DNA from: Candidatus Omnitrophota bacterium | GTDB taxonomy: Bacteria > Omnitrophota > Gorgyraeia > Zapsychrales > Zapsychraceae | NCBI GenBank assembly: GCA_018062515.1 | Contig: JAGOSC010000001.1 | Coordinates: 40,765-104,764, forward strand | Reading direction: 5' to 3' | Length of the DNA: 64,000 nucleotides | Part shown: positions 26,201 to 47,400 of the stretch, in pieces | How positions within the stretch are numbered: position 1 is the stretch's first letter | Layout: every line of letters starts with the position of its first letter | Made by a program: the position numbers and the translations under genes | Notes under the pieces: model-generated | What the model was told of the DNA's origin: nothing | The model's database searches: none | What the model saw: the letters and a program-made list of their open reading frames with translations, nothing else

Positions 26201-28264
26201 TTTTTGTTCATAAATTAATTGAGATAATTTATGTTTCCTGAGGCTTATGTAGGGATGCGAATCTAATATATTTTCGGCTTGGCTGGATTGTTGCATATAT
26301 TCCAGAAATCTCATAGCGTCAATGGCTCCTAGTACAGAATATCCCGCCTTATTCATCAATTCCAAAGCCACCATGTCTGCATCATATTCACCATTCTTGA
26401 TCATTTGCAACAAATAAGGCAAAGTCTCAGATCCATAAAAATCTCGAATATTAAGGCCGTAATGGGTGGTGTTTTGTATGGAATGGCTTAACTCATGCGC
26501 CATGACAAAGGCAATTGCATCTTCCGTAAGCGGAACGTTCATTTTCCCAGCGATATCATACAAAGCTTCATACAAACCTTTAAAGAAATATACATCCGTA
26601 CGATTACGTATCACAAATGCATTAATCTCATTTGAATCGATAATGCGCAACTCACCCGGTGAATCCTTGGTTTTTACTGTATAAATATCAATGAGGCGAT
26701 CAAATATTGTATGCATTTTTTCAGTAACCATATCGGTGTTTCGCGGTAATATGCCTGTATGTTCCATTTGCTTTTCGATCATAACAATGTTCCGTTCAAA
26801 ATTGGCTTCCACGTCGTCAACTGAGATACCCTGTTTTTTAGCAAGCTCCTCAATTAAAATTTCATCATACGTTTCATTCTTCTCAATTTTATATACAGGC
26901 TGTTTCGGCGTGGTTTCTTTTAGTTTTAAATTTTTGACAGGCTCTATTCTTGCTGCGGTTGTGTTCACATCTTTAGAACCAGTTAAGATCGCTGGATCAT
27001 TTACCGGAGGTAATTCTTCTTCCTGCCCTTCTTCCTCGTTAAATCTTTGTTTCATAAATTCATTAACCGTCTCCGGAGATATTTTTGAACTGATAAATGC
27101 TCCCGCAATGAAATGCCTTTTTGTAGCTTTATTTGTCTTAGCCAATTGTTCCTGGGTCACATTATCCGGCGTCACTGTCTGAAGCGGGACGATAATCTTG
27201 GTCAAAACCATACCGCCGGAAAAATATTTTCTGGGAATGATTTCCTGTGATACCGCGTCATATTCATCTTTGATATAATTATAAACGCCTTGTTTAAATG
27301 CTTCTAAATATTGCGCGTAAATTTTTTCTTTAGCGGAAGGATCATCAATCTCAACACCCCCGATTTTCTTCCGATCTGAAAATTTCTGATTCAATATACT
27401 TTGTTTCAGATTCTGTTTGTACCACTTCGCTAAAATCAATGAGTTATAGACTTGACGTAACTTGGAAAAATTTTTACCTTCGTTCACTTCTTTTTCAATT
27501 TCAGGTAAAATAATTTCCCGTATAACCTCAGATCCCAGTTTACTAGTATTTTGATTTTCTGATTCGCTTCTGCCTTTTAAACTTCTTTCATCGGTTCGGC
27601 TATGTTCCAATGCCACGTAATCTTCTTCCAACATAACCTTTAAATGGCTTTCAATAACATAGACAATATCGCCATTTTGATAAACTACGGCCTTTTCGGG
27701 AACTATCCAAACTTTATTAAATGTGTTAACAGGAACTTCAGTTGTTCCATATTCTTCCTGCGCACGTTGATAAATCTTCTTCCAAAATGCTTGTCCCAAG
27801 GCCTCTTCCGGATAAATTAATGACGCCGTCAATTGCTTTAAAATATAATCCTGGGCTAATAAATCGCGGCCCATTTCTGTCATACCAAATTCATTGGGTA
27901 CAATCCGATCCTTTTCATAGGGAGATAAATTCACCCATAGATCATCTTCTGGAATGGTTAATGAAGCCAAAAAATATTTAATTAACTTATTGGCCTCTTC
28001 TTTTAAGCGGTCGGGATTTAAGTCAACATCTCCGCTATCTAAAATGAAATCAAAATGAAAAGGATTATTAACCGCTATTTTCATACCGGTCAACATCGGA
28101 GGAATAAAGGCAGAAGTACGGGTAATCATCATACCCGGGAGAGGTAAATTAAGAACACTTTGCGCATAACTTGGCTGAGGCGGGACTACAAATGTCACAG
28201 CCAAAATAAGGCTTAGACAGGAAGAGAAAATTTTGTATAAGAAATGGTTTTTAAGCCGGGTCAT
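20003..28264 (-). CDS. Giant secreted protein P1 (2753 aa): signal peptide, family N-terminal domain, M48-type metallopeptidase domain, long helical region, UbiB/ABC1-type atypical kinase domain, family C-terminal domain.
   Basis: Uninterrupted 8.3-kb ORF. N-terminal signal sequence (LSLILAVTFVVPPQPSYAQS). HELSH...EYDAD (M48). ASIKQVNRG ... VYKIRRP ... EMDFMNE ... FHADLHQANVMITPDGGLVLIDRG (UbiB). C-terminus GGVDFSLDLLELEIRGQG...PVIINVTPITNLPLILG. Confidence 0.9.
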   Translation of the reverse strand: MTRLKNHFLYKIFSSCLSLILAVTFVVPPQPSYAQSVLNLPLPGMMITRTSAFIPPMLTGMKIAVNNPFHFDFILDSGDVDLNPDRLKEEANKLIKYFLASLTIPEDDLWVNLSPYEKDRIVPNEFGMTEMGRDLLAQDYILKQLTASLIYPEEALGQAFWKKIYQRAQEEYGTTEVPVNTFNKVWIVPEKAVVYQNGDIVYVIESHLKVMLEEDYVALEHSRTDERSLKGRSESENQNTSKLGSEVIREIILPEIEKEVNEGKNFSKLRQVYNSLILAKWYKQNLKQSILNQKFSDRKKIGGVEIDDPSAKEKIYAQYLEAFKQGVYNYIKDEYDAVSQEIIPRKYFSGGMVLTKIIVPLQTVTPDNVTQEQLAKTNKATKRHFIAGAFISSKISPETVNEFMKQRFNEEEGQEEELPPVNDPAILTGSKDVNTTAARIEPVKNLKLKETTPKQPVYKIEKNETYDEILIEELAKKQGISVDDVEANFERNIVMIEKQMEHTGILPRNTDMVTEKMHTIFDRLIDIYTVKTKDSPGELRIIDSNEINAFVIRNRTDVYFFKGLYEALYDIAGKMNVPLTEDAIAFVMAHELSHSIQNTTHYGLNIRDFYGSETLPYLLQMIKNGEYDADMVALELMNKAGYSVLGAIDAMRFLEYMQQSSQAENILDSHPYISLRKHKLSQLIYEQKTNIFTNIKAPRVNMAGEGEIKSQDVDFRLFMDASDQDLLDQIQNAESVTALDELTGMLVTRRRMNFLKALVKEKDLKTSFLRNVYVQAVHEAMTRRLDISVYNKKIDYSDMRSAAAIYEFGQDNETIKVSERKDSDFYGDFLKDLKGDVETYIRDYEKSKEKGGDTRRSASGKDLLNKLNSITSLQNSLSDADFDNFLLPLNEVEELIPMFTDAKDAGRLDILGNKVPLPQGKKAYVAEAIFEKAIKDPKKLISAFFYAKYIDQQPSVNVKVPTTDVQAKLRQKSNSIYLQNPSYRDIQSADTRKNLQNIILLQYILKRPIKNINSRYLDGSFPGVDLHTRGSQQDLDTIFLKYYNLLLREHSKSEALNIARQRLKKYFDIELGRNNDAIDSLLKNDPDLWVASQLNTTEDISSPRLERIAHVPDTFQNETGLDYNMPDKKQIKSFKALSELPDWALSEYLDKNFDEVASMIKVSVTENASITELFSWMKDRLDYDQRRRIFESVFLESDVNLRLTKFFISSFKQNPQEVAVWFLGMFSKNDALKLTEKLVTDVIYRQYLKAVKDQDNDAPISDLKNLQSTLLEYLFSQTSKTFQASEKSGEVYLALLREKMEESGKMSDQNYVDETIYSALTTLSAATPLRVYMYQSRGVSKDEGTPDFKSGKTSIMPEAEGKGSFKTIISRFALHNFGWNDNQYDHQSIFLTSLTNLSIDQLKQLLKKRLQYVALNTTVEYRGEDFSLSGYNDFFANLMTLILFKKLGDPKWMEKNSMDRLDDLMELRVSYSQNKDGVISASTSLNFKFEKDDVSKISYAQIKENLLGVAIPNATLDTVWENYIIKNNLQGNFLEVVPLLQNPNVGNQIINDPIGFLKDHTSGEKVPYRKIMAKFFKNSSVYTRLINEHIKIHGEGYVYGDYKPLPERLNWLTTSMPHKSLIKDGVIDMWETDVFPEIIADLPALVKLARQVSGKETDMQDMWTLLGEMDDDVGRLEKLNQQIEIAPERIYELLDFYQTMIPLLLSPQKTSRYGATAYMLWKQLPENTQLGLTDNIDALTKFMPEPSILRDDLLMQIANKYVKHLEEVAYITKELYVNNLLSPNKDLRTHDFISETVLHLFGAARMDERKDILLWVVGAQEKPKFVVDAETKLNIDFTTLPSDVKLLPSTMRDKFIEGFMLGDNGVLDPQDENDVRIMSDFLEKTFIFIFPENMPGLESEARLLLQKVFLVVMKKFPAYRRVHVIKALAQLRAKGNFEKTSVGERLAVFLGVLGSVGIKVSQYLSENETLVPDKRMRSNLGSLRNNAPEITKIASFSVLENEIPFSDIFVQEMDNPVGVASIKQVNRGKWLDIELLSQLVLKNAKSEAEANEIRSQLSALFQSKDIMNSGLVAYIVAKANQYKIKREEAGVPVVYKIRRPDMEVTLDTDFTTLESVSEDLQGDVYRGEAINLGDLVQTVKEWVTLEMDFMNEVKFSDMLTDLDYSWSEDLQKEAGVHLIHPKIFYATKSLIVEQEIQGIPILNLAPNQNPVSIEDVTKAGYSPLEAKRIYSELVKLDSKQAHIILGLKKAGFSETELNGLSEKLLKFDYDKLRSLLRQLLLHNIFVDGVFHADLHQANVMITPDGGLVLIDRGNVGTLNKKQSEGAKVLFKGLLLREKDLIKTGIDTIFINTDSASSKMTSISLESIQEVLDKGFDLKMTMNMISMRAVSEVKNSHISKNFSTFLKAFTQAMYLFPTDWANGMETLQTIGSYISLSDEDTVRAAQEQAKYIVVEDIERDESNEQEQDFRQILKKNFYEKTNRYFLSSLWQPAVYKMTESLMGKIKFQDMKLRKDALTLVKIYGPQILEDNINELIKKQDAEIKDVVGSLISVSMAERMMTAYIDLSMKESKWAKLYPAAKPVLKGAMLTGRPLLNVFVEASKEWTEITGKKYIENAVSNMTVSEGIEMVSQLFPEDFKDFSRKFENGKRDIINRQPALKNGFSNASTTNDLSQSKSGAAQSPTGGVDFSLDLLELEIRGQGNNLDAGNKVYNFENIQIDDGLMPVIINVTPITNLPLILGAVINTEDQLSSIR
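21030..22250 (-). other. UbiB/ABC1/ADCK-type atypical protein-kinase-like domain inside P1.
   Basis: Ordered family motifs: PVGVASIKQVNRG (A-S-I-x-Q-V-H-like), VVYKIRRP (VAVKVQRP-like), EMDFMNEVKF (E-x-D-F salt-bridge Glu), VHLIHPKIFY...LIVEQEIQG, and FHADLHQANVMI...LIDRG (F-H-A-D-P-H-P-G-N ... D-F-G equivalents). About 60 aa are inserted after the first motif. Confidence 0.6.
26290..26790 (-). other. M48-family (HtpX/BepA/Ste24-like) Zn-metallopeptidase domain inside P1.
   Basis: AFVMAHELSHSIQ (HExxH at 26483-26497) followed about 50 aa later by KNGEYDADMVALELMNKAGY, the M48 third-ligand E-x-x-x-(E/D)-A-D motif. Confidence 0.6.
27060..28264 (-). other. Family N-terminal conserved domain (signal peptide plus about 330 aa), P1 copy. 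Also at 37280-38357 (P2) and 49250-50334 (P3).
   Basis: Shared blocks: LNLP.PG, NPL.F.F, LIKYFLA.LT.P...LWVNLSPYEKD(R/K)(I/M)IP.EFG.TEMGRDLLAQDY.LKQ, YGTTEIPV.TFNK.WIVPE.A.VY, SHLKVML..DY.AL, NEGE.F..LRQ..NS.ILA.W(Y/F)K.NL, PR.YFSGG. Confidence 0.7.
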
Positions 28265-32867: not shown

Positions 32868-33991
32868 TTTTTCTTCCGTTTAAAAGCCATCATAAGAAAA
32901 TGAATGGCCAGGCCGGTAAATGTCAATAAACTGGAGATGTACGGTAAAAGCCGCCCAGAATTTCGTACAACCGCTAATGTCGAGCGCATATTTCCAGATG
33001 CGTCGACGGAATACGAAGCTTGATAAAATGTATAATTTTTATAACGATACGGATGATTCATATAAATTTCAGCATCACGTTTGGCTCCGCCATGCTCAAT
33101 CGTGACATAACTTTTATAGCTTCGCGCAATTTCCGTCCCAGGATGTTTTTCCATTTCAAATTTTTTTAAAATAACGGTGATGGGCAAAGGATAACGTTTA
33201 CGTTGTACCTGAAGATTTACACTTTTACCGTCGATCTCAATCGTCGTCGGGCGCGACTCTTTACCAAAAAGAAGGACACTGTCTTTTTTCTGTCCTTGCC
33301 CGGTGACATCTATAACTATTCCCGGAAAATTTTTTTCAGGTTCTTTATTGAGATCTGATTTTCTTAACTCATGAATGCCCGATACGTTCTTGATGGTGTT
33401 TTGCGCCTCATTACCCACGTATGCCTCGGCATTTTGGAAATAAGATTTAACAGCTGCCTCGACTCCTAAATCAGCAAACGACAATTGTTCGCCCGATTTT
33501 AATCCTTTCAAATCAAACGCGTATACTTTTTTAAATTCAGGTTTACTCTCCAGCCAGACGGCAACTTCCCAATAATGGTAAGCCACCCCGACATTGCTTC
33601 CCTGTCCTTCACTTAATGTCACGTTCGACTCCTCAACCATATGCAAAGTCACAAAAGCGGAGACAAAATAAGTAAGTAATCCCAAATGAATGACCAAAAT
33701 CCCAATGTGTGACCAGCGGTACACAAATCTAGTTATGGAAACAGCGCAGAGATTGATAAATAAAACCCAAAGAACTAGTTGAGCGCCGGGAAATGGCAGG
33801 AAATTAAAGACAAGGAAATACCAGGAATTGAAAAATTGTTGTTGAGCCTCATACAAGCCTTGATTAACTTGGGCAACGGTGCCCCAAAAAGTTAAAATGA
33901 ATAAGAGTAAAAGACAAACGACGGTTATCTTGATCGACGCTATTGACTTTAAAACGGAGGATTTCTTTAAACGTTCAAATAAATTATTCAT
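32864..33991 (-). CDS. ccsB: ResB/CcsB-like cytochrome c biogenesis protein (short form).
   Basis: 375 aa; N-terminal TM, periplasmic domain and C-terminal TM, as in ResB; 4-bp overlap with ccsA. Confidence 0.6.
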   Translation of the reverse strand: MNNLFERLKKSSVLKSIASIKITVVCLLLLFILTFWGTVAQVNQGLYEAQQQFFNSWYFLVFNFLPFPGAQLVLWVLFINLCAVSITRFVYRWSHIGILVIHLGLLTYFVSAFVTLHMVEESNVTLSEGQGSNVGVAYHYWEVAVWLESKPEFKKVYAFDLKGLKSGEQLSFADLGVEAAVKSYFQNAEAYVGNEAQNTIKNVSGIHELRKSDLNKEPEKNFPGIVIDVTGQGQKKDSVLLFGKESRPTTIEIDGKSVNLQVQRKRYPLPITVILKKFEMEKHPGTEIARSYKSYVTIEHGGAKRDAEIYMNHPYRYKNYTFYQASYSVDASGNMRSTLAVVRNSGRLLPYISSLLTFTGLAIHFLMMAFKRKKK

Positions 33992-34637
33992 TCGTTAATC
34001 TTAATGACGTAAGCAAGCCCATAAATTTTTCATCGTTTAAGTTTATGGCTTCTAACGTACCCGTTAATTTAATGAATATGGTCTTCTCATCCGATTCGAT
34101 GACGCCGGCCATAATACTCGACTCTTGGTTATCTTTAGATGAGGAGAGCGGCCGAAAATCGATCAGGCGAATTTTAAGTCCGCTTTGTGATGCAATTTCC
34201 TTTTGAGACGACATAAAATTCTCAAACTCTTCCGTCGATAAATCGAAAGAAAGTTGACCTAACCAGCGTTGGATATTCGCCTCAAGCCCACCCGATGCTC
34301 CGCTCAAGGAAACAATACTGCATTCAATAGCATTCTCACCCGTCGAGGTAAACGTCGCCATGCGCATTCCGCTTCCTTTCTGCTCCGTCCATCCGTTGGG
34401 AACTGTCCAGCTCAAATCAGCGTTTGCCATTGAATTCGTGAGCATTTCCTGCATAGACGAATCTTGGGATTGAAAATCCATACCTCGATTCATCATCATT
34501 CCTTCATGAGGATCTTTCACGTTTGAAGGTTGAGGATTAATCGTCACCTCTTCGTAAGTGCGGATCGTACGATTCTGTTCACACGAATAGGCAGACAGTA
34601 TAGTTATAGAAACTAATATTATTATTTTTGATTTCAT
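33984..34637 (-). CDS. Secreted or lipoprotein-like hypothetical protein.
   Basis: 217 aa; signal peptide MKSKIIILVSITILSAYSC; no recognisable motifs; 8-bp overlap with ccsB. Confidence 0.45.
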   Translation of the reverse strand: MKSKIIILVSITILSAYSCEQNRTIRTYEEVTINPQPSNVKDPHEGMMMNRGMDFQSQDSSMQEMLTNSMANADLSWTVPNGWTEQKGSGMRMATFTSTGENAIECSIVSLSGASGGLEANIQRWLGQLSFDLSTEEFENFMSSQKEIASQSGLKIRLIDFRPLSSSKDNQESSIMAGVIESDEKTIFIKLTGTLEAINLNDEKFMGLLTSLRLTNE

Positions 34638-34745: not shown

Positions 34746-37700
34746 TTACGAGGAATGTTGATTGGCTACTTGTAACGGAACTTTATCAATAGAATTTTCC
34801 TGATCTGATTCGGATTCTCCCAAAAGCATTTGGATATTGATCACCGGCGCGACATTGATGATGACAGGCTGTATCCCTTCAATCTGAATGTTTTGAATTT
34901 TGATTGGATCAAACTCAAGATTATATTTAATTTCCGTCCCTTGTGTGTTTAATTGCATATGATCTGGATTAAAATCAATACCACCCAAAGGATCACCGGT
35001 TAAAGGTTTATCTTTATTATCCGTCGCGTTAGGATTCTTCTTTCTTCCTAAATTCTTAAAGCCCAGAGTCATTGCCCAGAACAGAAGCTGACTAAAGTGA
35101 ATAAGTTCTTCTCTGTCCTCATTTGATATATTTTTTTCCTCAATTAACGTGTCGGAAAAGTTAACAAAATCACCGTAAAGCAATGTCCCCGACGCAACGG
35201 CAATCAATATTTGTGAAAGAATTTTATCAAGATTCTTATTTTCAGAAACATCATAATTTGACAGGAACCACTGGATGACCGGATGATCAAGCGTTAATGA
35301 TTGACCACCAGAATTTTTTTCCAGAGCTTTCTTAAAATCCTGAACCATACTGTCATTCGCGGAATTTTCTAATTCTATATTCAACCTTTGAGAATTAAGG
35401 GCAATTTCTTTCATCTGTTTGACACTTAACGAACGCCCTATCGAGTCCACCGCTGCCCGCCAAACCTTTTCTTTTGCGCTCTGACCAAACAGTTGCGTAA
35501 AAATCAAATCATCATCTATAGTATGGGCAACGTTCATACTGTCACTATACGTGAGACCATTATCGTTAATATATTTCACCGCCTCAGGAGATATATTTTT
35601 CTTCAAATTTTCCTGAAAATCGTCATTTATAGGTTTTGGCAAGATGAATGGCGGTGTGATAGGAAACGATTTAAAGTCTTTATTATATAATTCAAACGCT
35701 GCTTGCTGGAGCAACTCGGGATACATGAGCATGTCATCAATCATTTCCCGAATCGTTTCCCCGTCCCTGGCATCTCGCACCTTTTTTGGTTTTAAACCTT
35801 TGACCCCTTTTTTCCGTAAAGATTTATAGACGGAATTAAAAATATAGGTGGCTACATAATCGTAAGGATTCTGATACCCATCATTCTCCTGTTTTCTTAG
35901 AATAATCCTCCCTAGACCGATTAAATCCAAAATAGGCCTTCTATTCTGCGCCATTGAATATAAATAAGCGCCCGTTTCATTAATAATCCTAATCTGTAGT
36001 CTGTCATCAAAGGAATCCCATAAACCATCATTAAGAGTTTTAAAATAATCTGTTCCGCTATACGAAGATGCGTCTCTAAAATACGCATGTTCGCCTTCAT
36101 GAACTCTTATATAGTTAATAATGTCCAGCTTGATTTCATCAGGCGACATCCCCGAAAAAGCTTCTCTGATTAATTGATCAATTCTGGATGATGTGACTGA
36201 ATCCGTTAATAAATAATTATTTCCATTTAACGTGTTAATGATATTTTGGGTTTCTTTATTTACATAATCCATATTGATAAAAAGTTCTCCATCCAGGTGT
36301 GCCCCCTGATGAGCAACCAAAGGATGGAATGGTAAATCAATTTTATTTACTTGCCGATAATAAAAAACTTTAATTTCTCTGCCGGCTAAAATAAATTTTT
36401 CCTCTTTATCCACCACAAATATGGCGATAACAGGAAGCATATCACCCGATTTTTTTTCGATTAGATCCATCCCCCCTAAAAAACCATTCCGAAGAAGGTA
36501 CACCTCGAATTCATCCCACTTCTTAAGAAAAGTAAAATCCTTACTTTTATAAAAAGCTGGATCCTCTTTCTGATAAGACATAACTAAATATTCCATATAC
36601 GCTTCTAAAGTTTCGGAAATATCTTTAGCTTTACGAACGAGATCAACTTCGAGCTCTCTGCGATTAGGAGATGAGTCAGTAACTGCGGTCATATACTTTG
36701 ACCAAACCTCTTCAAAAAATATCCGCAATTTTCTCGTTTCTTCTGATTCAATCATCCTCTGTTCCTGCCAATTTTTGTCATTGATGATATCCAACATCGC
36801 TTCTTTTAATAATCGGCCATTATCTTTTAAGGGGTCTTTTATTTCCAGCTTTGAAGCATCATAGGATGCAATTTTATAAAGATAAATAAACAGTTCAAAT
36901 ATTTTTGGATCATTTCCGAGATTTTTAAGATTATCCGAAAAATACTCTACGTCAACGGTCGTTTCTAAATAACGTTTCCACTCATTTATATCCGTCGAAA
37001 ACAAAAGAGGCTGCTCTGTCTTCTTCATATGCTCCAGGTACTGAGTTAGATCAGATAAAGCTATTTTTGTACTTTGCTGATTAGCGTGGTTGACTTCATT
37101 GACTAGAAAAACTTCGAGATTATCAGGCTTTCCTCCATCTTCTTTTTTATAATACTCTCCTGTTTGCGTAATCCCCAAAGCGACTAGCATCAGTGAAAAC
37201 ACACTAAAACTGGCATGGGTCGTTCTTTTAAGCCAGTTGACGGATGGTTTTTTATTTTCCTTACTGGTCAGTATTGCAGCATCTATTTTTGCCGCGTTTA
37301 TCCCCCCGGAAAAATACTTTCGAGGAATCATTTCCTGTGTTGTTGAATCGTATTCATCACGCACAAAATTATGTACACCCTTTTTAAATGATTCGACATA
37401 CTGCTCGTAAATTTTCTCGTTCCCATCTTTATCTTCAACCTCTAAACCTTTAACTTTTCCCTTATTAACAAAGATTCCACCTAATAAACTTTTTTGTAAA
37501 TTATGTTTGTACCACGTCGCTAAAATCATCGAATTATAAACTTGCCGTAAATTGGCGAATGTCTCGCCTTCATTCACTTCTTTCTCAACGGCCGGAATCA
37601 ATATGTTCTTCACTATTTCCGAAGACACGCCGCTGGTGATTTCAATATCTTCTTTTGTCACCTTGCCCAACCCGTGCTGTTGACTATTCTGATTATGCTC

Positions 37701-38357
37701 TAAAGCCAGATAATCCTCCTCGAGCATGACTTTAAGATGACTATCGACGACAAAAACGGTTGTTCCATTAACATACACATCCGCTCTTTCTGGAACAATC
37801 CAAATCTTGTTAAAAGTATTCATTGGGATTTCTGTAGTTCCATATTGTTCTTGAGCCTTCTTGTAAACTTCATCCCAGAATTTTCCCCCCAGTTTTTCGT
37901 CCGGATTCATTAATGAAGCTGAAAATTGTTTCAACATATAATCCTGGGCTAATAAATCCCTTCCCATTTGTGTTAATCCAAAATCAGTCGGAATAATACG
38001 ATCCTTTTCATACGGTGATAAATTCACCCACATTTGTTCGGATGGAACAGTAAGCGTTGTCAAGAAATACTCAATGAGCTTATTAGCCTCGGCGCGAAAT
38101 TCTTCCGAACCTTGAACTTTGTCGCCCGGATCGATAATAAAATCAAATTTCAAGGGGTTGTCAGGATAAATCGTAATGCCGGTGATGATGGGAGGATTAT
38201 AGGGCTGGCTGACTAGCACTGGTGTTCCCAGAGCAGGCAGATTGAGCACACTTTGCGCGTAACTTTGCTGTGGTGGAACAACAAACGTTACCACCAAAAT
38301 AAGGCTTAAATAAGCCGAAAAAGTCCTGAATATTATGTGTGTTCTTAGTTGACGCAT
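34746..38357 (-). CDS. Giant-family secreted protein P2 (1203 aa): signal peptide, family N-terminal domain, internal TM, HEGEH motif region, family C-terminal domain.
   Basis: N-terminus about 60% identical to P1 and P3 (LSLILVVTFVVPPQQSYAQSVLNLP..., WVNLSPYEKDRIIP..., HLKVMLEEDYLALEH). HEGEH at 36087-36101. C-terminus GGIDFNPDHMQLNTQG...PVIINVAPVINIQMLLG. Confidence 0.9.
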   Translation of the reverse strand: MRQLRTHIIFRTFSAYLSLILVVTFVVPPQQSYAQSVLNLPALGTPVLVSQPYNPPIITGITIYPDNPLKFDFIIDPGDKVQGSEEFRAEANKLIEYFLTTLTVPSEQMWVNLSPYEKDRIIPTDFGLTQMGRDLLAQDYMLKQFSASLMNPDEKLGGKFWDEVYKKAQEQYGTTEIPMNTFNKIWIVPERADVYVNGTTVFVVDSHLKVMLEEDYLALEHNQNSQQHGLGKVTKEDIEITSGVSSEIVKNILIPAVEKEVNEGETFANLRQVYNSMILATWYKHNLQKSLLGGIFVNKGKVKGLEVEDKDGNEKIYEQYVESFKKGVHNFVRDEYDSTTQEMIPRKYFSGGINAAKIDAAILTSKENKKPSVNWLKRTTHASFSVFSLMLVALGITQTGEYYKKEDGGKPDNLEVFLVNEVNHANQQSTKIALSDLTQYLEHMKKTEQPLLFSTDINEWKRYLETTVDVEYFSDNLKNLGNDPKIFELFIYLYKIASYDASKLEIKDPLKDNGRLLKEAMLDIINDKNWQEQRMIESEETRKLRIFFEEVWSKYMTAVTDSSPNRRELEVDLVRKAKDISETLEAYMEYLVMSYQKEDPAFYKSKDFTFLKKWDEFEVYLLRNGFLGGMDLIEKKSGDMLPVIAIFVVDKEEKFILAGREIKVFYYRQVNKIDLPFHPLVAHQGAHLDGELFINMDYVNKETQNIINTLNGNNYLLTDSVTSSRIDQLIREAFSGMSPDEIKLDIINYIRVHEGEHAYFRDASSYSGTDYFKTLNDGLWDSFDDRLQIRIINETGAYLYSMAQNRRPILDLIGLGRIILRKQENDGYQNPYDYVATYIFNSVYKSLRKKGVKGLKPKKVRDARDGETIREMIDDMLMYPELLQQAAFELYNKDFKSFPITPPFILPKPINDDFQENLKKNISPEAVKYINDNGLTYSDSMNVAHTIDDDLIFTQLFGQSAKEKVWRAAVDSIGRSLSVKQMKEIALNSQRLNIELENSANDSMVQDFKKALEKNSGGQSLTLDHPVIQWFLSNYDVSENKNLDKILSQILIAVASGTLLYGDFVNFSDTLIEEKNISNEDREELIHFSQLLFWAMTLGFKNLGRKKNPNATDNKDKPLTGDPLGGIDFNPDHMQLNTQGTEIKYNLEFDPIKIQNIQIEGIQPVIINVAPVINIQMLLGESESDQENSIDKVPLQVANQHSS

Positions 38358-38424
38358 TAGGTTATTAGTATTATTTATATCTATTTATGCTCAAGAGTAA
38401 CATATAGTGAGCAGAGTTGCTAAC

Positions 38425-41400
38425 CTAGGAATTAATCCTAGAATGCAGTCGTTTTGGGTCATCACTCAGGTGCTTATACTGGAAACTATACTCTGTTGGA
38501 TTACCTTCCTGATCGACGAGGCCTAGAAGAAACGGCATATTGGTCACTGGTGTTAAATTGATAATGACGGGAATAAAACCTTCGATATTTTTGAGAAGAT
38601 CGGCTGGCTGCTGCAACATCGGCAACGGGATACCGTTACCGTCACGTTTAATTTGAAGGTCTAAAAGCTCCGGATTCAAATCAATCCCGCCGGGGGTTTC
38701 AGGATTTTTGGTATTCGACACGGGAACACCATTAACTTTCATGTCCCCACCACTCCATCCATTGAGATACAGTTTATTTTTCCAATTCTTTTGTTCACGC
38801 TGAAACTCCTTCTCGGTAAAAATCTTTTCTCTATTACTTCCACGAGAATTTTTGCGAGGCGCTAATTTGATACCCTTCTTTTCCAAAGCTGTTTCCGCTA
38901 AACGAAGCATATATTTTTTTGCTAGCCATTCATCCCATCTATATTGGATCTTCTCCGGGTGGTCATTAGAATTTTCAACCTTTAGAAGTTCCCCACGAAT
39001 CTTCTTTTTAAGTTTTTTAAGCTTTTCTAAATCTAGTACGCCATTACCTTTTATTTGGAGAGCATGCACCCATATTTGCGCATCAATCCGATGTGCTAGC
39101 AATTTCCGGTCATGAGGCGATAAGACTGTCCAGTCTTCAGCTTTCAAATTCTTTAACTGAGCAAGTTCTCTTGCGTTTAACGAGAGCAATTCATGAGTTA
39201 TCTTAGCTAAAGTCATTTTTAACATTCGCTCAATTTCTACATTTATTAGTGGTTGTTCCTCGGGGTCTACATCAAAATTAATTAGATCTTCCCATTCGTT
39301 TTCATCCTGAAAATCAGAAATCATAGCGTGATCAATTTTTTCTTTAACGCTTGATAATATTTTAGTCCATCTTTCCGACGATGGACCGATAAATTTCTCT
39401 CCACTTTCTTCTTTTATTTTCGTTTCCTGAATGCGAGCGTTAAGAATGCTGACGACAAATGATTTTAACGGCTGTTGAGAAATCCATTCAATCAATTTCT
39501 CGTCCTGAATAGCCGGATTTTCTTCAATTAAATGATTTAATTTTGAATCAAGATCGCTAAATATATCCTTCAAGAATTTAGCTAATTTTTGCTGATCAAC
39601 CGGCGTGCTTTGGGCATCAAGATAATCTAAAATCTTATTTAATTCCGCCTTCTGCTTCTCATTAAAGGCATTCAGAGTTTTATGATCAGGCAGTTCATTT
39701 TCCTCCAAAACACTTTCAATGACCAGTTCAAGTAGGTATTGAATTTCTTGTTTAAGCATCAATTCCTTATCCGGCATTTTCGAAATTTTTTCAACGATGG
39801 CTAATGAAAATTCGACAAATCCGGACGACGACCAATTAGGACTAGAGGTAAAAAATATCTTAAAATCCTCATCAATTTTACTTAATAATAAAGTTAAAAT
39901 CTGGTCAGCACTATGATTCACAACTATTAACCGCGCATTAATCCTTTTAATGAGATCCTCTGATTCAGCTGATTTTCTTTTTTGTTCAAGCTGTAAACTA
40001 GTTAGACCGCTTAAATCACTTTTTAATGCCTCTAGTTCTAAAAGCGGACGATTCTCTTTTTCCAAATACCGTGAAAGCGGCAACTCAAGTACATAACTAA
40101 AAGGTTCATATTGATATTCGATTCCTTCCTGAGATAATTTAGTGAGGAGCTTTACGGCGCTTGATTCTCCGTGCGTATGGACCCAAATTTGTGCTTGTAT
40201 ACGTGATAAAACAATCGCTATGCCTTGCAGGCTGCCAGACACATTTATATCTTCGCTTCCTGTGAGACTATTTAAACCAGCCGAAACGACTGTTACTAAA
40301 TCTTTCTGCACTTCAGAATCCAACTTCTTAATATATTCTTGATAATTTGAAAATTTGCCTTTGTCATTTCTCAAACCATTCTCAAGCACATCATTAATTT
40401 TTGTTAACTCAGTACGAGTAAGTTGCGCCAACATGTTCTGAAAAATTTGATCTTCTTGCGTGTTTTCATTCTGGGATCCGAGAATTTTTGTTACAGTCAT
40501 CCATTCTTCCAAAGAATATTTTCCTGTTTCCACCGCCGTCGGTTGTTTTCTAACTGAAGCAGGATTGTTTGGTTCAGCCGAAGGCTCATTCAATTTAATC
40601 ATATCCTTCTCGGAAAATATTTCTTCATTCTCTAAGTCATGTTCATCATGCATAATCGCTGCTTCTAAAACATACAAAAGAGGTTGATGAGGCTCAATCA
40701 TAATTCCCGCGCGAGATGTTTCGATAAGAAGCTGTAAAACGCCTAATTTCTTAAGTTCGAGTAAGCGTTTTTGGGCTTTAAATCTTCTTAAAACAATATT
40801 CCACTCGACGGGTTTATTGACCCTTAAAACTCTAAGTAAATTCTTGGGATTATTACGCCACGTTTCATATCCTTGCGACTTTTCTACTTCCAGACTGTCG
40901 ATCCCAGTCACAATCGCATTCCGGTAATTTGTCTGCTCCTCAGAAGTGAACTGGCTAAACATTCCCATTAAAGCATATTCGAGGGTTGGTTCATCATTCG
41001 TGTTCCCAAGCTCCATGATTTTAATTAACATGTCGAGCTCTTCCACGTTCAATTCATTGAGTAGTTTCTTAAATTCTTCATCAGATTTTTCACCTCTTTC
41101 CGTTAAATAGATGGGAACCATTTCCCCCGACTTATTCTCTTTATATCGATAAATAATGTGAGGTGCAGTAAGAACAACATTAATGGCATACCATTCCAAA
41201 GGTGGACGGCGGCCTTGTTTCCTCAAGGCCATCTTTTTTTCTTCCGATGCATTCACCCAATCGTTCGTTTCAGATTCATACATTTGTAATGTTTTAATCT
41301 CAATGGAGGTTAATGTCTTGACTGGTTTTGATAATAAGTCCTTAATATACGCCTTTGTGACCATCATAGCCTGATCCTCATCATGATTATCTTTTTCAAG

Positions 41401-44400
41401 AGCAAATCGGAGCATAAACAATACAGCTTCCACCTCCTCGGGAGAACGCATTGAGTAACCATAAAGCGCGTCTTGAAATTTATTAAAAACACGTGATCTC
41501 AACTTTTCTAGAGTTTCAGTTTTTCTCTCAATTTGCACAAGCACCCATAATTGAGCGGTAACACGGTCTAATAAAATCTGCCATTCTTCCGGCGCGCGAT
41601 TCCCCTTTGTTCGCTGAAACCATTCTTCCGGAGATTCTTCTTCGATCTGCTTACTTTCTCGTTTCATTTTCTCAAACTCTTGATTTTTTACTAATTCACG
41701 GCCTTTAAGCCGTAATAATTTCTTCAATTCCTGATCTTCAACCATACTCCATTCTTTATGGTTTTCGAGCGCATTCTCAAGGTTTCTCTCAATAATATCG
41801 CTTAATTCGATAAGTTCATCATGGTCTAAGTCAGTTAATTGATGACTAAATATTTCTAACGGCTGCTGCAATAATGTATCCATTAGATCCTCAGTATTCC
41901 CTTCCCCACTCTGATGATTGGCTAATAGTTCACTTAACTTCGACCAATTTCCATCATTGACCTTTTGACTTTCATTCTTCATAGCATATTCAATCAATAA
42001 TAAAAAGGGATGACTATGTATCCATTTTAAATGTTCTTTATTGGCCATTTTTGGATTATTTTCTAAGTGTTTTTCTATCATAACCAAGAATTCGTCCATT
42101 GCTGCCTTAAACGCTTCGCTTAATTGCTCTCCAGAAATTTGATGGTTTAAATTTTTTACATAAAACAATAATTCTTGTATTTTAATTCTTTGTTCCTGGT
42201 TAATTTCTTTATGAAGCTCTTTCTCTAATGCAACTTCTGCAATATATTGGAAAACATATTTAATTGGATGTTCGATATAATTTTGTTCAGAAAGCTTTTC
42301 AAGAATAATCAAGGTGTTCTCAATAAATCCTGACACAGACCAAGGATCACTATCCTTTAGGGATTCAATTAAATCTTGATCAATATATTTTAAGTACAAA
42401 AACAACAAATCATTGAGGCTTTTTTCAAAAGCCGATAGGCGCGCATTAATACGCTCATCGATCATGTTTAATTGCTCTTTGGTTATATATTCTTGTATAA
42501 AATCATTTTCGGTTTCTGTTCTTTTTTCTCGCAGTTGTTCAGAATTTAAATTGCTCAATCCATCTGATAATTCATTCAGCGATTTTTCCATTTTTGACTT
42601 TGGAATATATTGAATATATTCTTCAAATTCCTTTGATAAAGACGCTGCAAGGATATAAATAAAAGGTTGATCCATCATAGGAAAAATATTTTCGCGGATA
42701 ATTCGTGTTAAAAATTTTACACCTTTTAATGTCCCATTTTGAAGCAGCCAGATTTGCGCTTCAATACGTTGAAAAACAATTTTCAATTTTATAAAATCGC
42801 TATCCTCGTAAGATCCTGACGAATTTATAAATTGATCATTTTTTAGACTATCTATACCAGCCTGGAGTAAGTTTGTAAAATTATCCTTCAATTCCGCGTC
42901 TAAACCATCAAAATATGATTCATACTCTAATTCTTGATCATAAGTTATGCCCATAATCGCAGGCTTATATATGTCGCGCATTTCAATTAACTGTTCAACA
43001 CTAAATTGATCCAACAAAGTTCTAAAAGTCTTATCTTCTTCTGTGTTCTTAACATTTAGAGGGCCAAGAATGTCGGTGATGATCACCCATTCAGTCGCTG
43101 TGTAAGACCCTAATTCGCGTTTACTCTTCTTTTCCTTTTTTTGTTCCGGTTTACTTTCGTTTCCCTTTTCTTCAAAGTCAGTTGCAATATCCGAAGTCTC
43201 CATCCACGTGAGGAAATGGTCACTAGTAAACACATCTTTATTTTCCAAATTGGCTATACCGTACTTAATTGCTCCCTCAAGAACATATATGAAAGGCTGA
43301 TTAGTGGAAATTTCAAAACCAAAACCACCCAAACTGAAAATTTCAGCTAAACGCTGTAAAGCGGCTTCACTACCCATTTCAACCAAACGAATTTGGGCTT
43401 CAATACGTTTTAAAACAATTTCCCATGCCTCTGGATTGTAGGAGCTTAAAGCCCTAAACCAATTATCGTCCTGTTCTTTTTTAGTGCCATGATGAATTTG
43501 TAAAGCTAATGTTTCTAGGCTATCTACCCCCGAAATAATGATATTTTTAAAATCCTTGGTTTGCTCAATTATTCTTTTCGCTTCTATATAGTCTCCGTCA
43601 TTCGCATTCTGCCCTAGTTGCATGACATACTTTAATCCATCCAACTCTATAGGACTCAATTTGTTTATTAAAGACTTGAAAATAATATCAGAACTTTGAG
43701 CATGTGGTGTTGGATAGTCAGGATGAAATTCTAATAATCCTTCACCATCGTCAAATAATAATATTTCATTTGGTGAATTAAGGACAAATCCTAAAGCATA
43801 CCATTCATCAGGCGGCCGACGGTTATTTGATCGAAGCTCTGAGCGTTTCTCTTTTGAAGTATTAACCCAATCGCCGGTTTTATATTCGTATTCTTCGAGT
43901 TGATTAATCTCCGTACCCAGTAAGTGTCTGATTGGTTTTTTGAGAAGGTTCTCAAATTTAGCCTTGGAAATCATCGCCTGATCAGCTATTTTCTCATCAA
44001 GAATTTTCAACCATTTTTGAGTCGGGCGAATATACGAAACAGCTTGCCCATTTAAGCTCGGTTGTGAATCCAGAGCCTTTTTAACCAATTTTTCCAAATC
44101 TTCAAGCTGAGGCTTCTGCATGACGGCTATTGTTTGCCGGAATAAAGCGTCATTATCTTCGTCGGATATTAATTCCCGCGATATGATTTCCGGTTCTGTT
44201 GAATTTTGCCTATTCGCCACGTCAATCAACTCTTTCATGCGGGAAATATTCCATGCGGAATCTATGTCAGAATTCTCTGCCTGCAGCGGCTCGATGACCA
44301 TCAGCCTTTTTATTCCCAGCAACGGCTTACGCAACATGTTAGCACTCCCGACATCGACGTTCTTGCCATTCCGCGCCCACAATTCAATAATCTTATTCAT

Positions 44401-47400
44401 TTTTACGTCTAAATCTTTCAGCTCAGTGGAATCTAATGTCAATAATTCTTTATGCGCTTCTATCCGGTTAATGGCCCTGTGGTAATACATTAATGTTATA
44501 AATCTTTTAATCCGCTGATTATCGTCACCTATGTACCAATAATCAAGAGCGTCTTTTCCAGTTTCTAAAATATTTTTCGCTTCGTTGAAATCTTCGTTGC
44601 TCAAAGATTTTTCATTACCAGAACGATTCAACCGTGCGTTTAAAAAATAAGCCAGGTCATCCGGTAAATCAATATTACGGAGATTGGGCATTTCAACCGG
44701 TTGTTTAACCGGCTCTATTTTGTTTATCGCAGATGGATTTGATTCGAGAATCGCACTTGAAGCAACGTATTCCGATTCCATCATCCGCTCAAGCTCAGCG
44801 ATTTGACTATTGATCCATTGACTGTTTAGGCCCGCATTTAAATCCTTAAGTTTCTTGATCAAGCTCTCCAATTCAGCCAATTGCGCAAAATCTTTTTCAG
44901 AATTTGATTCTTCATTTACATTTACAGGTGAATTTTTCTTTAATTCTTCCTCAGCATGAGGCAGTTTTAGTTTTTCATCGATCCTAGACAACCATTCACC
45001 GGTAAATTTGTACTGGCCTTTTTCTATAAAGTCATTCTTTACCTGAATACTTAAACGGACTTTCTGGGTTAACAAATTTCGTATTTGTGTAAGCTGAATA
45101 AATTGTTCAGAGTTTTCATCCGAAGCCTCAGGAAATCGCCTTAATAATTTATTAAATAACTTTATTCCCTTTACCTCATTTATACTAACATCCGACAATA
45201 TCGTATTATTGTCGGAATAGTCGGGCGTATTTAGAAAAAAATTAACATGACCGATAAGTCTTTCCAGATCAAGAATGTACAAAAAGCTCTCCAATTGACC
45301 AACGCGCGGTATTGACGACGACTGACTAAAATTAACTTTCAGTTCATTTTCTAGCGCTGCTTCCGCATTTTCTTTTATGATTCTAAGCTCCAGGCGGCTC
45401 TTATCGTTCAAAGGTCTTGTCATTAAATCTTTCAAATCAGCCAACTGTGCGAAATCTTTGTTTGATTCATCAACTTTAGAGGCCGATGTCTTTCTCCTAT
45501 ACTGTCCGCTATACTCTCCGCCGATCACTTTGCTGTGCTCTACGGGTTTCGACGCAACCGTGGTTTTGTCTTGCATTTTTAACTTTTCTAAGATTCCTTC
45601 CAAAATCGATATCATTGCCTCACGTTCCCGCTTTGATTTAAGGCTAATACTATTACTTTCTTTCCTGCTAATTCCTTTTTGCCAATCATCTCTATCACTA
45701 TCCAAATTCCATTTTCCCCAGAATTGACTTATGTACCGCTTAACCTGCTCAATGTCATCTAATCCAGTTAATTTTTTAACCCCTACATATGCTTTAGTAA
45801 GGATTAACAATTTTTCTAACTCATCTTTGTCCCATGGAAATGTGATCTTCTTATGTGTAGTTTCATTAAACACGTGCGGCTCAAGTAGATATTTTAATTC
45901 TACGAGCATTTTGGGGGTTAATTGACTTAATTTATTTGCGGCATCATCAAATGATAAATGCAGCAAATCTGATAATTGCAATTCATCACTATGCCTCGGC
46001 TTTAATTTGTCATCAATCAAGGAAGACCATTTGTCAGTGAATACGTAAAAATGCGGACTCTTAAAGTGGCCAAATCTGGGATCATCAGAGTATTCGTGAC
46101 CAGCGGTTTGAACTTCCTTGGTTAATAAATCCCGTATTCGGAGCAACGGAAAAAATTGTTCCGGTTTATCTTCGGTATAATTAAGCGGAATTCGATTTAA
46201 TATCTGTAACAATATACGTTCACTCGTTTTTTCATTCACGATCACTTCAGATATTACTTTTCTATTTGTTGAATAATCAGCCGAATTCAAAAGAGAATTG
46301 ATGTGATTAATGAACCATTGCAAATCAAGAATATCCAAAAATATATCCGCTTGAACAAATGATGGTGCCTCTTCGTTTCCTGGAGCAATGAAATGCATAA
46401 AAAGTTGCTCTCTTAAGGTATTCTCAGCCTTTTCTTTAATGGATCTAAGTTCCTCGCGGGTCTTGTCATTCAAAGGTGTTGCCATTAAATATTTCAAATC
46501 CGTCACCTGAGCTTGACTTTTATCTAAAGACGTGTCCACATCCCTTTCCGCAGCGATCATGGCCGCATCGGCTTTCAATTTCATCTGAATTTCAGATAAC
46601 TTTGCCACCCATCGATCTCTTGACCATAGGTAATGCTCTTCCAAATATTCTTTAAGAACATCGGTCTGTTCTTCGGGTTTATGTACCATCCAGTACCGGT
46701 TTTTGAGTTCAATTTTTACTATTTTTTCCAGCTCTTTAAGTTCCAGCGGATTCGATTCCGCAATCGGTTTATTCAATAATCGCTTTGTCGACTCGGAAAA
46801 TCTCTTTGCTGTAGCGGCGATTCGTGCTTCTTCCTCTTGAGATAACATAGACTGATCGACGGATGAAGATTTTTGAGGAATAAAAACAGTAATTTTCGGA
46901 TTATCTTTATGATGAGTATCGTTATTCTCGTCGAAAAGAACACGAAAATACATTGGAATTTTTTTATTGATGAGCTCTTGGTATAACTTATGACTAATAT
47001 AAATTTTCTCAACTTCCCAATTTTTTGCGTCTGAAGTTGTGTTAGAAAATTTTAGATAGTTTTGTACGTCAGGATCATTTTTATCGACCTTTTTAAAAGT
47101 TTCTTTACGGAAAACTTGCCTTACTTTGTCTTCAACGACTGCTTCTTCTTTCATAAATTTATTTTGAAAAATAACTCTGGTTCTTTGACTGGGCAGACTC
47201 CATAGTATCCTAAGGTGGTCATTCCTGAAGTTCTCATGAATTTTACCACTCCAACTAAAATTAATTGGTTTACTGCTTTTCGCTTTTTCCTCTCTCGCTT
47301 TTATTTTTCCTTTTATTTTTTCTTCATCCCTTTTCGTTAACGCGCTCATAGTGGCTTGGTCCGAGCCGGCTTGATTTTGTTTTTCATCAGCCGTCATCGC

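What the first reader, a model, noticed from the sequence alone, without database searches (positions are those of the whole stretch)
34746..38357. P2, the compact family member with an internal TM helix and an HEGEH motif
P2 has the same signal peptide, N-domain and C-domain as P1 and P3 but only about 750 aa of cargo. It contains a strongly hydrophobic segment (ASFSVFSLMLVALGI, about 37160-37225) after the N-domain and an HExxH (VHEGEHAYF, 36087-36101) with downstream acidic residues. P2 may be a minimal member, useful for defining what the frame needs. It sits 67 bp downstream of P3 on the same strand, so it is probably co-transcribed.
Basis: seen in the sequence. Interest (0 to 1): 0.55.

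Follow-up and report, generated by a model that had tools for sequence, protein, structure and literature searches.

The report
Exported Omnitrophota protein with novel HExxH domain
P2 is a real 1203-residue exported protein from an uncultured Omnitrophota bacterium whose variable middle part holds a previously undescribed, probably zinc-dependent, protease-like domain, preceded by a leftover signal peptide rather than a proven membrane helix.

Summary
ORF 34746..38357 (-) encodes 1203 aa with the signal peptide, N-domain and C-domain of P1 and P3, a hydrophobic stretch at aa 382-396, and HEGEH at aa 753-757.

The "TM helix" is better read as an inherited signal peptide. A free-standing homolog (P0125) has its Sec signal peptide at that position, and most MA modules are preceded by Sec- or Tat-like segments. 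Its hydrophobicity is marginal, so membrane anchoring is unproven.

A second HExxH module (MB) has lost its conserved residues in P2. P2 is not the minimal member; relatives of about 680 aa exist. The N/C frame has over 4000 relatives and no solved structural relative.

The parts
38256..38357 (-). N-terminal Sec-type signal peptide, aa 1-34 (MRQLRTH / IIFRTFSAYLSLILVVTFVV / PPQQSYA|QS)
   Evidence: Positive n-region, 19-mer KD 2.05 and Hessa sum 0.75. An A-x-A-like SYA|Q site is conserved as AYAQS across the family.
37284..38255 (-). Family N-domain (frame), aa 35-358, ending in the invariant RKYFSGG
37269..37283 (-). Junction motif DAAIL (aa 359-363, context KIDAAILTS), a member of the D-x-A-[MI]-[LITMV] class
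   Evidence: Either this motif or SSP[VILMT] lies within 70 aa after the N-domain in 56 of 118 relatives, and within 35 aa before the C-domain in 56 of 107. Only 3 occurrences were found in 41,883 aa of N-domains.
37170..37214 (-). Hydrophobic segment ASFSVFSLMLVALGI, aa 382-396, with a K/R-rich stretch before it: a signal-peptide-like element belonging to the cargo unit
   Evidence: Position kept in P0002 and P0042. Equivalent to the Sec signal peptide of the free-standing homolog P0125. Marginal hydrophobicity. Low-confidence isolated helix in the cargo model, but a beta strand with pLDDT ~88 in the full-length model.
36780..37157 (-). Module M0, helical, aa ~401-526
   Evidence: Profile positions 1-125. 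Duplicated in P0002 and present in a subset of hits. Helical with pLDDT ~90.
35688..36779 (-). Module MA, aa ~527-890: novel zincin-like HExxH...E domain
36087..36101 (-). HEGEH, aa 753-757: putative metal ligands H753 and H757, and catalytic E754
   Evidence: H is kept in 41/45, E in 42/45 and H in 40/45 aligned modules. The motif lies on model helix 375-396.
35976..35978 (-). E794 (NETGAYL), putative third metal ligand
   Evidence: E is kept in 36/40, followed by the conserved xxAYL. It lies on the next helix, model residues 421-440.
35124..35687 (-). Module MB, aa ~891-1078: a degenerate copy of a second HExxH module
   Evidence: The family conserves H989, E990, H993, W1045, E1048, E1049, Q1056 and E1057 at 85-96%. 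P2 has S, Q, N, K, S, Q, S and G at those positions.
34749..34985 (-). Family C-domain (frame), aa 1125-1203: GGIDFNP, then about 28 aa, then the hydrophobic PVIINVAPVINIQMLLG (from P1161) and an acidic tail
   Evidence: 38-41% identical to P1, P3 and P4. A consensus was built from 111 relatives, with a median of 72 aa to the end. AF2 pLDDT is 75-93 with a 14-residue strand. No NCBIfam or Pfam sorting-signal model matches.
38358..38424 (-). 67-nt spacer between the P3 stop and the P2 start
   Evidence: No terminator-like hairpin and no same-strand promoter-like site in it.

Best explanation
P2 is an exported, modular protein of a very large Omnitrophota-specific family. The family is built as Sec signal peptide, conserved N-domain, variable cargo and conserved ~72-aa C-domain.

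P2's cargo is one inherited unit made of four parts:
- A signal-peptide-like hydrophobic segment (aa 382-396).
- A helical module, M0.
- A new, distant zincin-like metallohydrolase domain, MA, with H753-E754-x-x-H757 on one helix and E794 on the next. It is most likely a zinc metallopeptidase.
- A second HExxH-type module, MB, which has lost its conserved residues in P2 and is probably inactive.

Shown: the domain boundaries, the conservation of the motif, the modelled arrangement of secondary structure, and the positional equivalence of the hydrophobic segment to the signal peptide of a free-standing homolog.

Inferred:
- The N-terminal signal peptide sends the protein through Sec.
- The weak internal hydrophobic segment is a relic or secondary export signal, at most a peripheral tether, rather than a classical stop-transfer anchor.
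- MA binds zinc and cleaves peptides outside the cytoplasm, acting on prey or host envelope proteins or on family members.
For: - Family frame.
- Cargo orthologs P0002 and P0042 align over the whole cargo and keep both HExxH and the hydrophobic segment.
- The profile search found 78 representatives and showed that MA and MB are separable modules. All named ones are Omnitrophota.
- Conservation: H753 91%, E754 93%, H757 89%, E794 90%, then xxAYL.
- The cargo model has pLDDT 80.9 and pTM 0.71, with a beta sheet followed by the HExxH helix and the Glu helix.
- hhalign of the MA profile against P1's Pfam-significant M48-like region aligns HExxH and ETxxYL (probability 44%, E 2e-4).
- Signal-peptide origin: P0125 is a complete 493-aa gene made of Sec signal peptide, M0 and MA. 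Most of the 28 MA modules examined are preceded by Sec- or Tat-like segments, although only 8 of the 28 pass the hydrophobicity cut-off used (Hessa 19-mer sum below 4.0).
- 15 of 118 family members have such a segment after the N-domain, several with RRxF(L/F) or a lipobox.
- The segment is not packed into the cargo fold.
Against: - No curated family matches.
- P2 deviates from its own family next to the motif: L755G, T756E and K758A. Its MB is dead. Relaxed constraint or loss of activity in P2 itself is therefore possible.
- In the full-length model the hydrophobic segment becomes a confident beta strand. The relic reading does not predict this.
- No TM or signal-peptide predictor was available, and there are no expression or proteomic data.
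Confidence: 0.55

Rival explanations
1. True single-pass anchor. The N-terminal signal peptide exports the N-domain, aa 382-396 stops transfer, and the HExxH cargo stays in the cytoplasm, tethered to the membrane. The C-domain's hydrophobic stretch may re-enter the membrane.
For: - It is the only internal hydrophobic stretch of the cargo, and it is conserved in position in orthologs.
- It is unpacked in the cargo model.
- Published DeepTMHMM runs on giant Omnitrophota proteins report signal peptide plus many TM helices, about one per 370 residues (bioRxiv 10.64898/2026.06.07.730766).
- Many family cargos are cytoplasm-type enzymes such as PGK, PGI and hexokinase.
Against: - The hydrophobic core is only 15 residues and includes three Ser.
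- The Hessa sum is +3.5, against -2.9 to +1.2 for the ResB TM helices in the same window.
- The N-side flank carries about +4 net charge and the C-side flank about 0, which opposes an out-to-in orientation (sequence).
- The equivalent element in P0125 is an N-terminal cleavable signal peptide.
- About 87% of family members have no such segment.
Confidence: 0.2
2. MA is not a peptidase. It is a non-haem iron enzyme, an oxidase or oxygenase that uses HExxH...E as a facial triad, like PolE (DUF6421) or the HExxH αKG oxygenases on a DPP III-like fold.
For: - PolE has a DPP III-like fold and an HE/DxxH-x21-23-E motif, and it is Fe- and pterin-dependent (PMC12614342).
Against: - The motif spacing is 36 residues in P2, not 21-23.
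- No Pfam DUF6421 hit appears in any of the 41 members scanned.
- The protein is exported, and outside the cytoplasm pterin or αKG co-substrates are unlikely to be available.
- Most HExxH+E proteins with a zincin fold are hydrolases (general knowledge of MEROPS clan MA).
Confidence: 0.12
3. P2 is a polyprotein precursor. It is cut at the junction motif (KIDAAIL|TS), so the cargo acquires a free N-terminal signal peptide and is exported on its own. The N-domain and C-domain would then be separate products.
For: - Junction motifs (D.A[MI]L or SSP[VIL]) bracket cargo modules far above background.
- They are typically followed by a K/R n-region, an h-region and an AxA or AQ site, or by a Tat RRxFL motif, even deep inside giant proteins.
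- P3 carries six such motifs.
Against: - No protease or cleavage has been shown.
- P2's c-region (ITQTG) lacks a good -3/-1 signal-peptidase site (sequence).
- P2 has no junction motif before its C-domain.
- The motifs could be simple linker or recombination-junction relics.
- No literature supports the idea.
Confidence: 0.15
4. P2's cargo is a decaying, catalytically dead passenger kept only as a spacer or binding module.
For: - MB has lost all eight family-conserved polar or aromatic residues.
- MA has atypical residues at 755, 756 and 758, next to the ligands.
- M0, MA and MB have lower GC (0.34-0.37) than the frame's N-domain (0.40).
Against: - All four putative catalytic or ligand residues of MA are intact in P2.
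- The 1203-codon ORF is intact.
- The model is confident.
Confidence: 0.12

Closest known systems
Gluzincin metallopeptidases (MEROPS clan MA(E)); the nearest solved folds are dipeptidyl-peptidase III (M49; 5zum, 5yfb, 5na6, 3csk), then M1 (LTA4 hydrolase, aminopeptidase N), M4 (thermolysin, elastase) and M48 (BepA)
   Different: There is no detectable sequence relationship and no Foldseek hit. P2 has the 5-residue HExxH, not M49's HExxGH, and lacks the EExR(K)AE(D) second motif. The His-to-Glu spacing is 36, against 18-25 in M1 and M4. The domain is embedded in a signal peptide/N-domain/C-domain frame and is known only from Omnitrophota.
PolE / DUF6421 Fe- and pterin-dependent oxidase (9j2e)
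   Different: The spacing is 21-23 against 36. There is no Pfam DUF6421 match. PolE is a cytoplasmic actinobacterial biosynthetic enzyme, whereas P2 is an exported Omnitrophota protein.
Giant multi-enzyme proteins of Omnitrophota with a signal peptide and TM helices (West-Roberts 2023, bioRxiv 10.1101/2023.11.21.568195; Nielsen & Lui 2026, bioRxiv 10.64898/2026.06.07.730766)
   Same: Same phylum, an N-terminal signal peptide, scattered hydrophobic segments, and a mosaic of enzyme domains normally found in the cytoplasm.
   Different: Those papers treat proteins of 10,000 aa or more. In the passages I read or searched by keyword, they describe neither the conserved N-domain/C-domain frame, nor the junction motifs, nor the MA and MB modules. 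P2 has 1203 aa.
MARTX toxins and viral polyproteins with internal signal peptides (analogy only)
   Same: Conserved terminal regions bracket a mosaic of exchangeable modules separated by short recurring junction motifs. Internal signal-like segments precede modules.
   Different: No RTX repeats, no T1SS signal and no cysteine-protease domain were detected, and no cleavage has been shown. The resemblance is recalled from general knowledge and was not tested.

Membership tests
Zincin / gluzincin metallopeptidase superfamily | HExxH motif located on an alpha helix | tested here: met
   HEGEH at aa 753-757 lies on model helix 375-396. The motif is conserved in 40-42 of 45 modules.
Zincin / gluzincin metallopeptidase superfamily | Third metal ligand Glu on the next helix downstream | tested here: met
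   E794 is conserved in 36/40 modules and lies on model helix 421-440. Its role as a ligand is inferred, because coordinates could not be inspected.
Zincin / gluzincin metallopeptidase superfamily | Mixed beta sheet N-terminal to the active-site helix | tested here: met
   Five strands at model residues 262-331 (P2 aa 626-695) precede the helices.
Zincin / gluzincin metallopeptidase superfamily | Significant structural similarity to solved zincins | tested here: inconclusive
   [not shown]
Zincin / gluzincin metallopeptidase superfamily | Match to a curated peptidase family model | tested here: not met
   Pfam and NCBIfam give no hit for P2. Across the 41 members scanned there are only single, faint hits to M57, Tox-MPTase2 and Zn_peptidase at E 0.04-0.07.
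Zincin / gluzincin metallopeptidase superfamily | Zinc binding and peptide-bond hydrolysis | not testable with these tools
   This needs metal analysis and an activity assay of recombinant MA with an E754A control.
Peptidase M49 (DPP III) | HExxGH hexapeptide and the EExR(K)AE(D) second motif | tested here: not met
   P2 has the pentapeptide HEGEH and the context NETGAY. The family consensus is HE[LIF][TA]H[KQ] ... E[TV]xAYL.
DUF6421 / PolE Fe-pterin oxidases | HE/DxxH-x(21-23)-E motif and a Pfam DUF6421 match | tested here: not met
   The spacing is 36 residues in P2. No DUF6421 hit appears in the 41 members scanned. The motif definition is from PMC12614342.
Peptidase M48 | Pfam PF01435 match | tested here: inconclusive
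   There is no Pfam hit for P2. The MA profile aligns to P1's PF01435-positive region over 51 columns, including both motifs, at probability 44%.
Single-pass transmembrane anchor | About 19 or more apolar residues with favourable insertion energy | tested here: inconclusive
   The core is 15 residues. The best 19-mer has KD 1.44 and an unweighted Hessa sum of +3.5. The ResB TM helices in the window score -2.9 to +1.2, and the weakest CcsA helices +3.2 to +4.7. No dedicated predictor was available.
Single-pass transmembrane anchor | Flanking charges consistent with the topology (positive-inside rule) after an exported N-domain | tested here: not met
   The N-side flank SKENKKPSVNWLKRTTH carries net about +4. 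The C-side flank TQTGEYYKKEDGGKPD carries about 0 (sequence).
Sec signal peptide (internal, inherited) | Positive n-region followed by a 10-15-residue h-region | tested here: met
   The sequence is NWLKR-TTH-ASFSVFSLMLVALGI. It is positionally equivalent to the signal peptide of the complete gene P0125.
Sec signal peptide (internal, inherited) | c-region with small residues at positions -3 and -1 | tested here: not met
   P2 has ITQTG|E with no AxA-like site. P0002 (TLA|Q) and P0125 (CFS|Q) do have one.
Known C-terminal sorting signals (PEP-CTERM, GlyGly-CTERM, LPXTG, T9SS CTD and similar) | Match to the NCBIfam or Pfam models for these signals | tested here: not met
   P2, P1 and P3 give no such hits. 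The tail after the hydrophobic stretch is acidic, not basic.
Omnitrophota N-domain/C-domain frame family (unnamed) | Signal peptide, N-domain ending in RKYFSGG, and a C-domain with GGID(L/F)NP ... PVIINxxP | tested here: met
   All three elements are present in P2.

The most novel reading that the evidence does not exclude
P2 and its more than 4000 relatives may be a bacterial polyprotein or effector-display platform unique to Omnitrophota. In this reading, an N-domain and a C-domain without any solved structural relative bracket exchangeable cargo cassettes. Each cassette is delimited by a short junction motif (D-x-A-M/I-L or S-S-P-V) and often carries its own Sec or Tat signal. Processing at the junctions would release modules, including new HExxH enzymes such as MA, for separate export or for delivery to the host or prey cell.
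Probability: 0.15. Interest if true: 0.85.

Novelty: new variant of a known kind. Interest (0 to 1): 0.5.

Why it matters
Omnitrophota are widespread, uncultured, probably host-dependent nanobacteria. A large share of their coding capacity goes into huge, unannotated exported proteins.

This analysis makes three things testable:
- A compact, tractable member carries a new and very divergent HExxH...E metallohydrolase module. It gives a handle on what these proteins do to the cell envelope or to a host.
- Some hydrophobic segments that topology predictors count as TM helices in such proteins may be inherited signal peptides. That would change the predicted location of the cargo.
- The family frame (N-domain and C-domain) has thousands of members, several per genome, and no known fold relative, which makes it a good target for structure determination.

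If the cargo proves to be an ordinary secreted protease, the finding is a useful annotation but not a surprise.

Tried and rejected
- Pfam, NCBIfam, PADLOC and PHROGs scans of P2 gave nothing.
- PDB sequence searches with P2, with the cargo alignment and with the N-domain alignment gave nothing significant.
- A word-indexed homolog search with the cargo alone found only P2 itself. The exhaustive profile search was needed.
- Foldseek against the PDB with the cargo model gave no hit.
- The AFDB50 library was unavailable.
- The idea that the Met in D-x-A-M-L is a relic or internal start codon was rejected. P1 and P2 have Ile there, and the alternative junction SSPV has no Met.
- Autotransporter or trimeric-autotransporter anchor for the C-domain was considered and rejected. 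It has about 72 aa with one uniformly hydrophobic 14-residue strand, not an amphipathic barrel.
- Synteny of P2-type genes was checked. The P0042 locus is unrelated (rpsO-pnp-ftsK..., then TPR proteins), so there is no conserved operon partner.
- P1, P3 and P4 were searched for MA and MB; none was found.
- Literature searches for the frame, the modules or 'polyprotein' in Omnitrophota gave no description.
The metal-site geometry and the pairing partner of the aa 387-398 strand could therefore not be checked.
Full report
**Observation.** The ORF at 34746..38357 on the minus strand is real, starts with ATG and encodes 1203 aa. It is identical to an NCBI MAG protein annotated only as a hypothetical protein of Candidatus Omnitrophica. 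BLASTP against the other large ORFs of the window confirms the shared frame. Residues 1-358 are 56% identical to P1 (20003..28264), and residues 11-364 are 52% identical to P3 (38425..50334). The last 60-70 residues are 38-41% identical to P1, P3 and P4 (54757..63942, which runs off the window). The hydrophobic stretch ASFSVFSLMLVALGI is aa 382-396 (37170..37214), and HEGEH is aa 753-757 (36087..36101). The spacer to P3 is 67 nt. All stated features are therefore present at the stated places. In shuffles of the cargo, HExxH arises in 0.7% of trials and an equally hydrophobic 15-mer in 18%. The hydrophobic stretch is thus unremarkable by composition alone and needs comparative evidence.

**Context.** The window is a housekeeping region of an Omnitrophota genome. 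It encodes cytochrome bc/c proteins, F-type ATP synthase, haem biosynthesis, cytochrome c maturation (ResB/CcsA), MoeA and GDPD, all on the minus strand. The four family genes lie between these operons and have slightly lower GC, 0.37 against 0.39-0.45. No terminator-like hairpin or same-strand promoter-like site lies in the 67-nt P3-P2 spacer. Co-transcription is plausible but untested.

**The family frame.** A search with full-length P2 returned 4281 proteins at E<=1e-3 among the 8000 candidates scored. They share about 50-63% identity over the first ~30% of P2 only. Their middle parts carry very different Pfam domains, including phosphoglycerate kinase, glucose-6-phosphate isomerase, phosphoglucomutase, hexokinase, UDP-glucose pyrophosphorylase, methyltransferases, DnaJ, HEAT repeats and histidine-kinase ATPase. 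All named hits are Omnitrophica/Omnitrophota.

A pattern scan of species-representative genomes found at least 583 loci, several per genome and at least 7 in one MAG. The record titles read Omnitrophota or, for some third-party assemblies, 'uncultured Planctomycetales'. The N-domain ends in an invariant RKYFSGG. The C-domain has the consensus GGIDLNP, then about 28 aa, then PVIINITPxxNLPLLLG and a short acidic tail, with a median of 72 aa.

**The cargo and the HExxH.** With the cargo alone, the word-indexed search found only P2. Two proteins from the first search, P0042 (1508 aa) and P0002 (1310 aa), align with P2 across the entire cargo at 24-32% identity. Both have HELTH where P2 has HEGEH, and both have a hydrophobic stretch in the same place.

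A profile of these three, scored against 1.84 billion representatives, gave 78 hits, 56 of them below 1e-10. It showed that the cargo is modular:
- M0 covers P2 aa ~401-526.
- MA covers aa ~527-890 and contains HExxH.
- MB covers aa ~891-1078.

MA and MB occur independently inside other proteins of up to 7722 aa. Every hit that carries a name is from Omnitrophota.

In an hmmalign of the hits, H753 is kept in 41/45 modules, E754 in 42/45, H757 in 40/45 and E794 in 36/40. E794 is followed by a conserved xxAYL. This is the signature of a functional HExxH...E site.

MB has its own nearly invariant HExxH, a W-Y-x-E-E motif and a Q-E pair. In P2 all eight of these positions are replaced (S989, Q990, N993, K1045, S1048, Q1049, S1056, G1057), so P2's MB is a degenerate copy. 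P2 also deviates from the MA consensus beside the ligands (L755G, T756E, K758A).

**Fold.** An AlphaFold2 model of aa 365-1120, built with a 41-sequence alignment, has mean pLDDT 80.9 and pTM 0.71. It shows a helical region, a five-stranded sheet (aa 626-695), the helix carrying HEGEH, and the next long helix carrying E794. That order matches zincins.

The support has limits. The scores are modest, and Foldseek against the PDB finds nothing. Pfam scans of all 41 alignment members and a profile search of PDB sequences are negative apart from isolated, faint HExxH-level hits. A profile-sequence comparison with P1's Pfam-significant M48-like region aligns both motifs (HELSH ... SETLPYL) at 44% probability.

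**The hydrophobic segment.** It is not buried core. In the cargo model, aa 365-418 have pLDDT below 50, with only a short isolated helix.

As a TM helix it is weak, for three reasons:
- The core is 15 residues and includes three serines.
- The best 19-mer has KD 1.44 and an unweighted Hessa sum of +3.5 kcal/mol. The ResB helices encoded 1 kb away score -2.9 to +1.2, and the weakest helices of the multi-pass CcsA score +3.2 to +4.7.
- The positive charges lie on the N-terminal side, opposite to what an out-to-in anchor after an exported N-domain would need.

Comparative data give a better reading. P0125 is a complete 493-aa gene, with in-frame stops upstream and a stop at the MA/MB boundary. 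It consists of a typical Sec signal peptide (MKKTIFFNILFLCFFSTVCFSQ) followed directly by M0 and MA, and it aligns to P2 aa 427-895.

Most of the 28 MA modules examined, even those deep inside giant proteins, are preceded by Sec-like or Tat-like segments, although only 8 of the 28 pass the hydrophobicity cut-off used. Examples are DRRNFLRMAAGFTAALALLRGPLKAQA and TRREFLKRTAVGITAAMSG.

In 15 of 118 family members a comparable segment follows the N-domain, several with RRxF(L/F) or a lipobox. The segment therefore travels with the cargo unit and descends from an export signal.

In P2 its c-region no longer has a good -3/-1 site. What it does now is open: nothing, peripheral tethering, stop-transfer, or signal function after processing. 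One unexplained point remains. In the full-length model the same residues (aa 387-398) become a 12-residue beta strand with pLDDT ~88, alongside a 14-residue strand of the C-domain.

**Junction motifs (seen in passing, relevant to mechanism).** Short motifs, D-x-A-[MI]-[LITMV] or S-S-P-[VILMT], lie within 70 aa after the N-domain in 56 of 118 relatives. They lie within 35 aa before the C-domain in 56 of 107. Only 3 occurrences were found in 41,883 aa of N-domain sequence. P2 has KIDAAILTS at aa 357-365, P1 has NDPAILT, and P3 has six such motifs. They are usually followed by the signal-like segments described above. This pattern suggests module boundaries that might be processing sites, but no cleavage has been shown.

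**Verdict.** The HExxH interpretation is supported, with the caveat of very remote similarity and a possible non-peptidase chemistry. The TM interpretation is replaced by 'inherited signal-peptide-like segment, membrane role unproven'. The 'minimal member' idea holds only within this window.

The finding is a new variant of a known kind: a new zincin-like family in an unusual, phylum-specific architecture. The most interesting open aspect is the frame family itself.

Noticed in passing
window 37269..37283 (P2 aa 359-363); P3 aa 701, 977, 1256, 2118, 2987, 3668; P1 aa 423: Recurrent junction motifs, D-x-A-[MI]-[LITMV] or SSP[VILMT] in other lineages, bracket cargo modules across the family. 56/118 have one just after the N-domain and 56/107 just before the C-domain, against 3 in 41,883 aa of N-domains. 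They may be processing sites or cassette boundaries.
   Followed up: partly
relatives P0011, P0029, P0018, P0007, P0057, P0126, P0136, P0127 (proteins, not in the window): Twin-arginine (RRxFL) signal-like and lipobox-like segments occur internally, after the N-domain or deep inside giant proteins, directly upstream of cargo modules. Topology predictors would count them as TM helices.
   Followed up: partly
window 35124..35687 (P2 aa 891-1078): Module MB belongs to a second Omnitrophota-specific HExxH family, with a conserved HExxH, a His, W-Y-x-E-E and Q-E. P2's copy has lost all of these residues.
   Followed up: yes
[not shown]
   Followed up: partly
window 37164..37199 (P2 aa 387-398): The same hydrophobic residues are a low-confidence isolated helix in the cargo-only model. 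In the full-length model they are a 12-residue beta strand with pLDDT ~88.
   Followed up: no
window 20003..28264 (P1): P1's cargo includes a Pfam-significant M48-like peptidase region (aa 514-599, HELSH at aa 590) and an ABC1/UbiB atypical kinase domain (aa ~2089-2339). P4 (54757..63942) carries leucine-rich repeats.
   Followed up: partly
family-wide: Cargo regions of signal-peptide-bearing relatives contain enzymes normally found in the cytoplasm, such as PGK, PGI, PGM, hexokinase, UGPase, DnaJ and radical SAM. This is hard to reconcile with simple secretion.
   Followed up: no
window 20003..28264, 34746..50334, 54757..63942: The four family genes have lower GC (0.366-0.374) than the interspersed housekeeping genes (0.386-0.452). 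Within P2, the cargo modules M0, MA and MB (0.34-0.37) are lower than the N-domain (0.40).
   Followed up: partly
P0042 aa ~1240-1330 (ortholog, locus L080): The P2-type cargo ortholog P0042 carries an extra protein-kinase-like segment (LIHGDMQHHNVLL ... MIDFGD) between MB and the C-domain. Its locus is not syntenic with P2's.
   Followed up: no
window 33984..34637: The 217-aa ORF just downstream of P2 starts with a lipoprotein-like signal (MKSKIIILVSITILSAYSC) and overlaps the ResB-like gene by 8 nt. It has no Pfam match.
   Followed up: no
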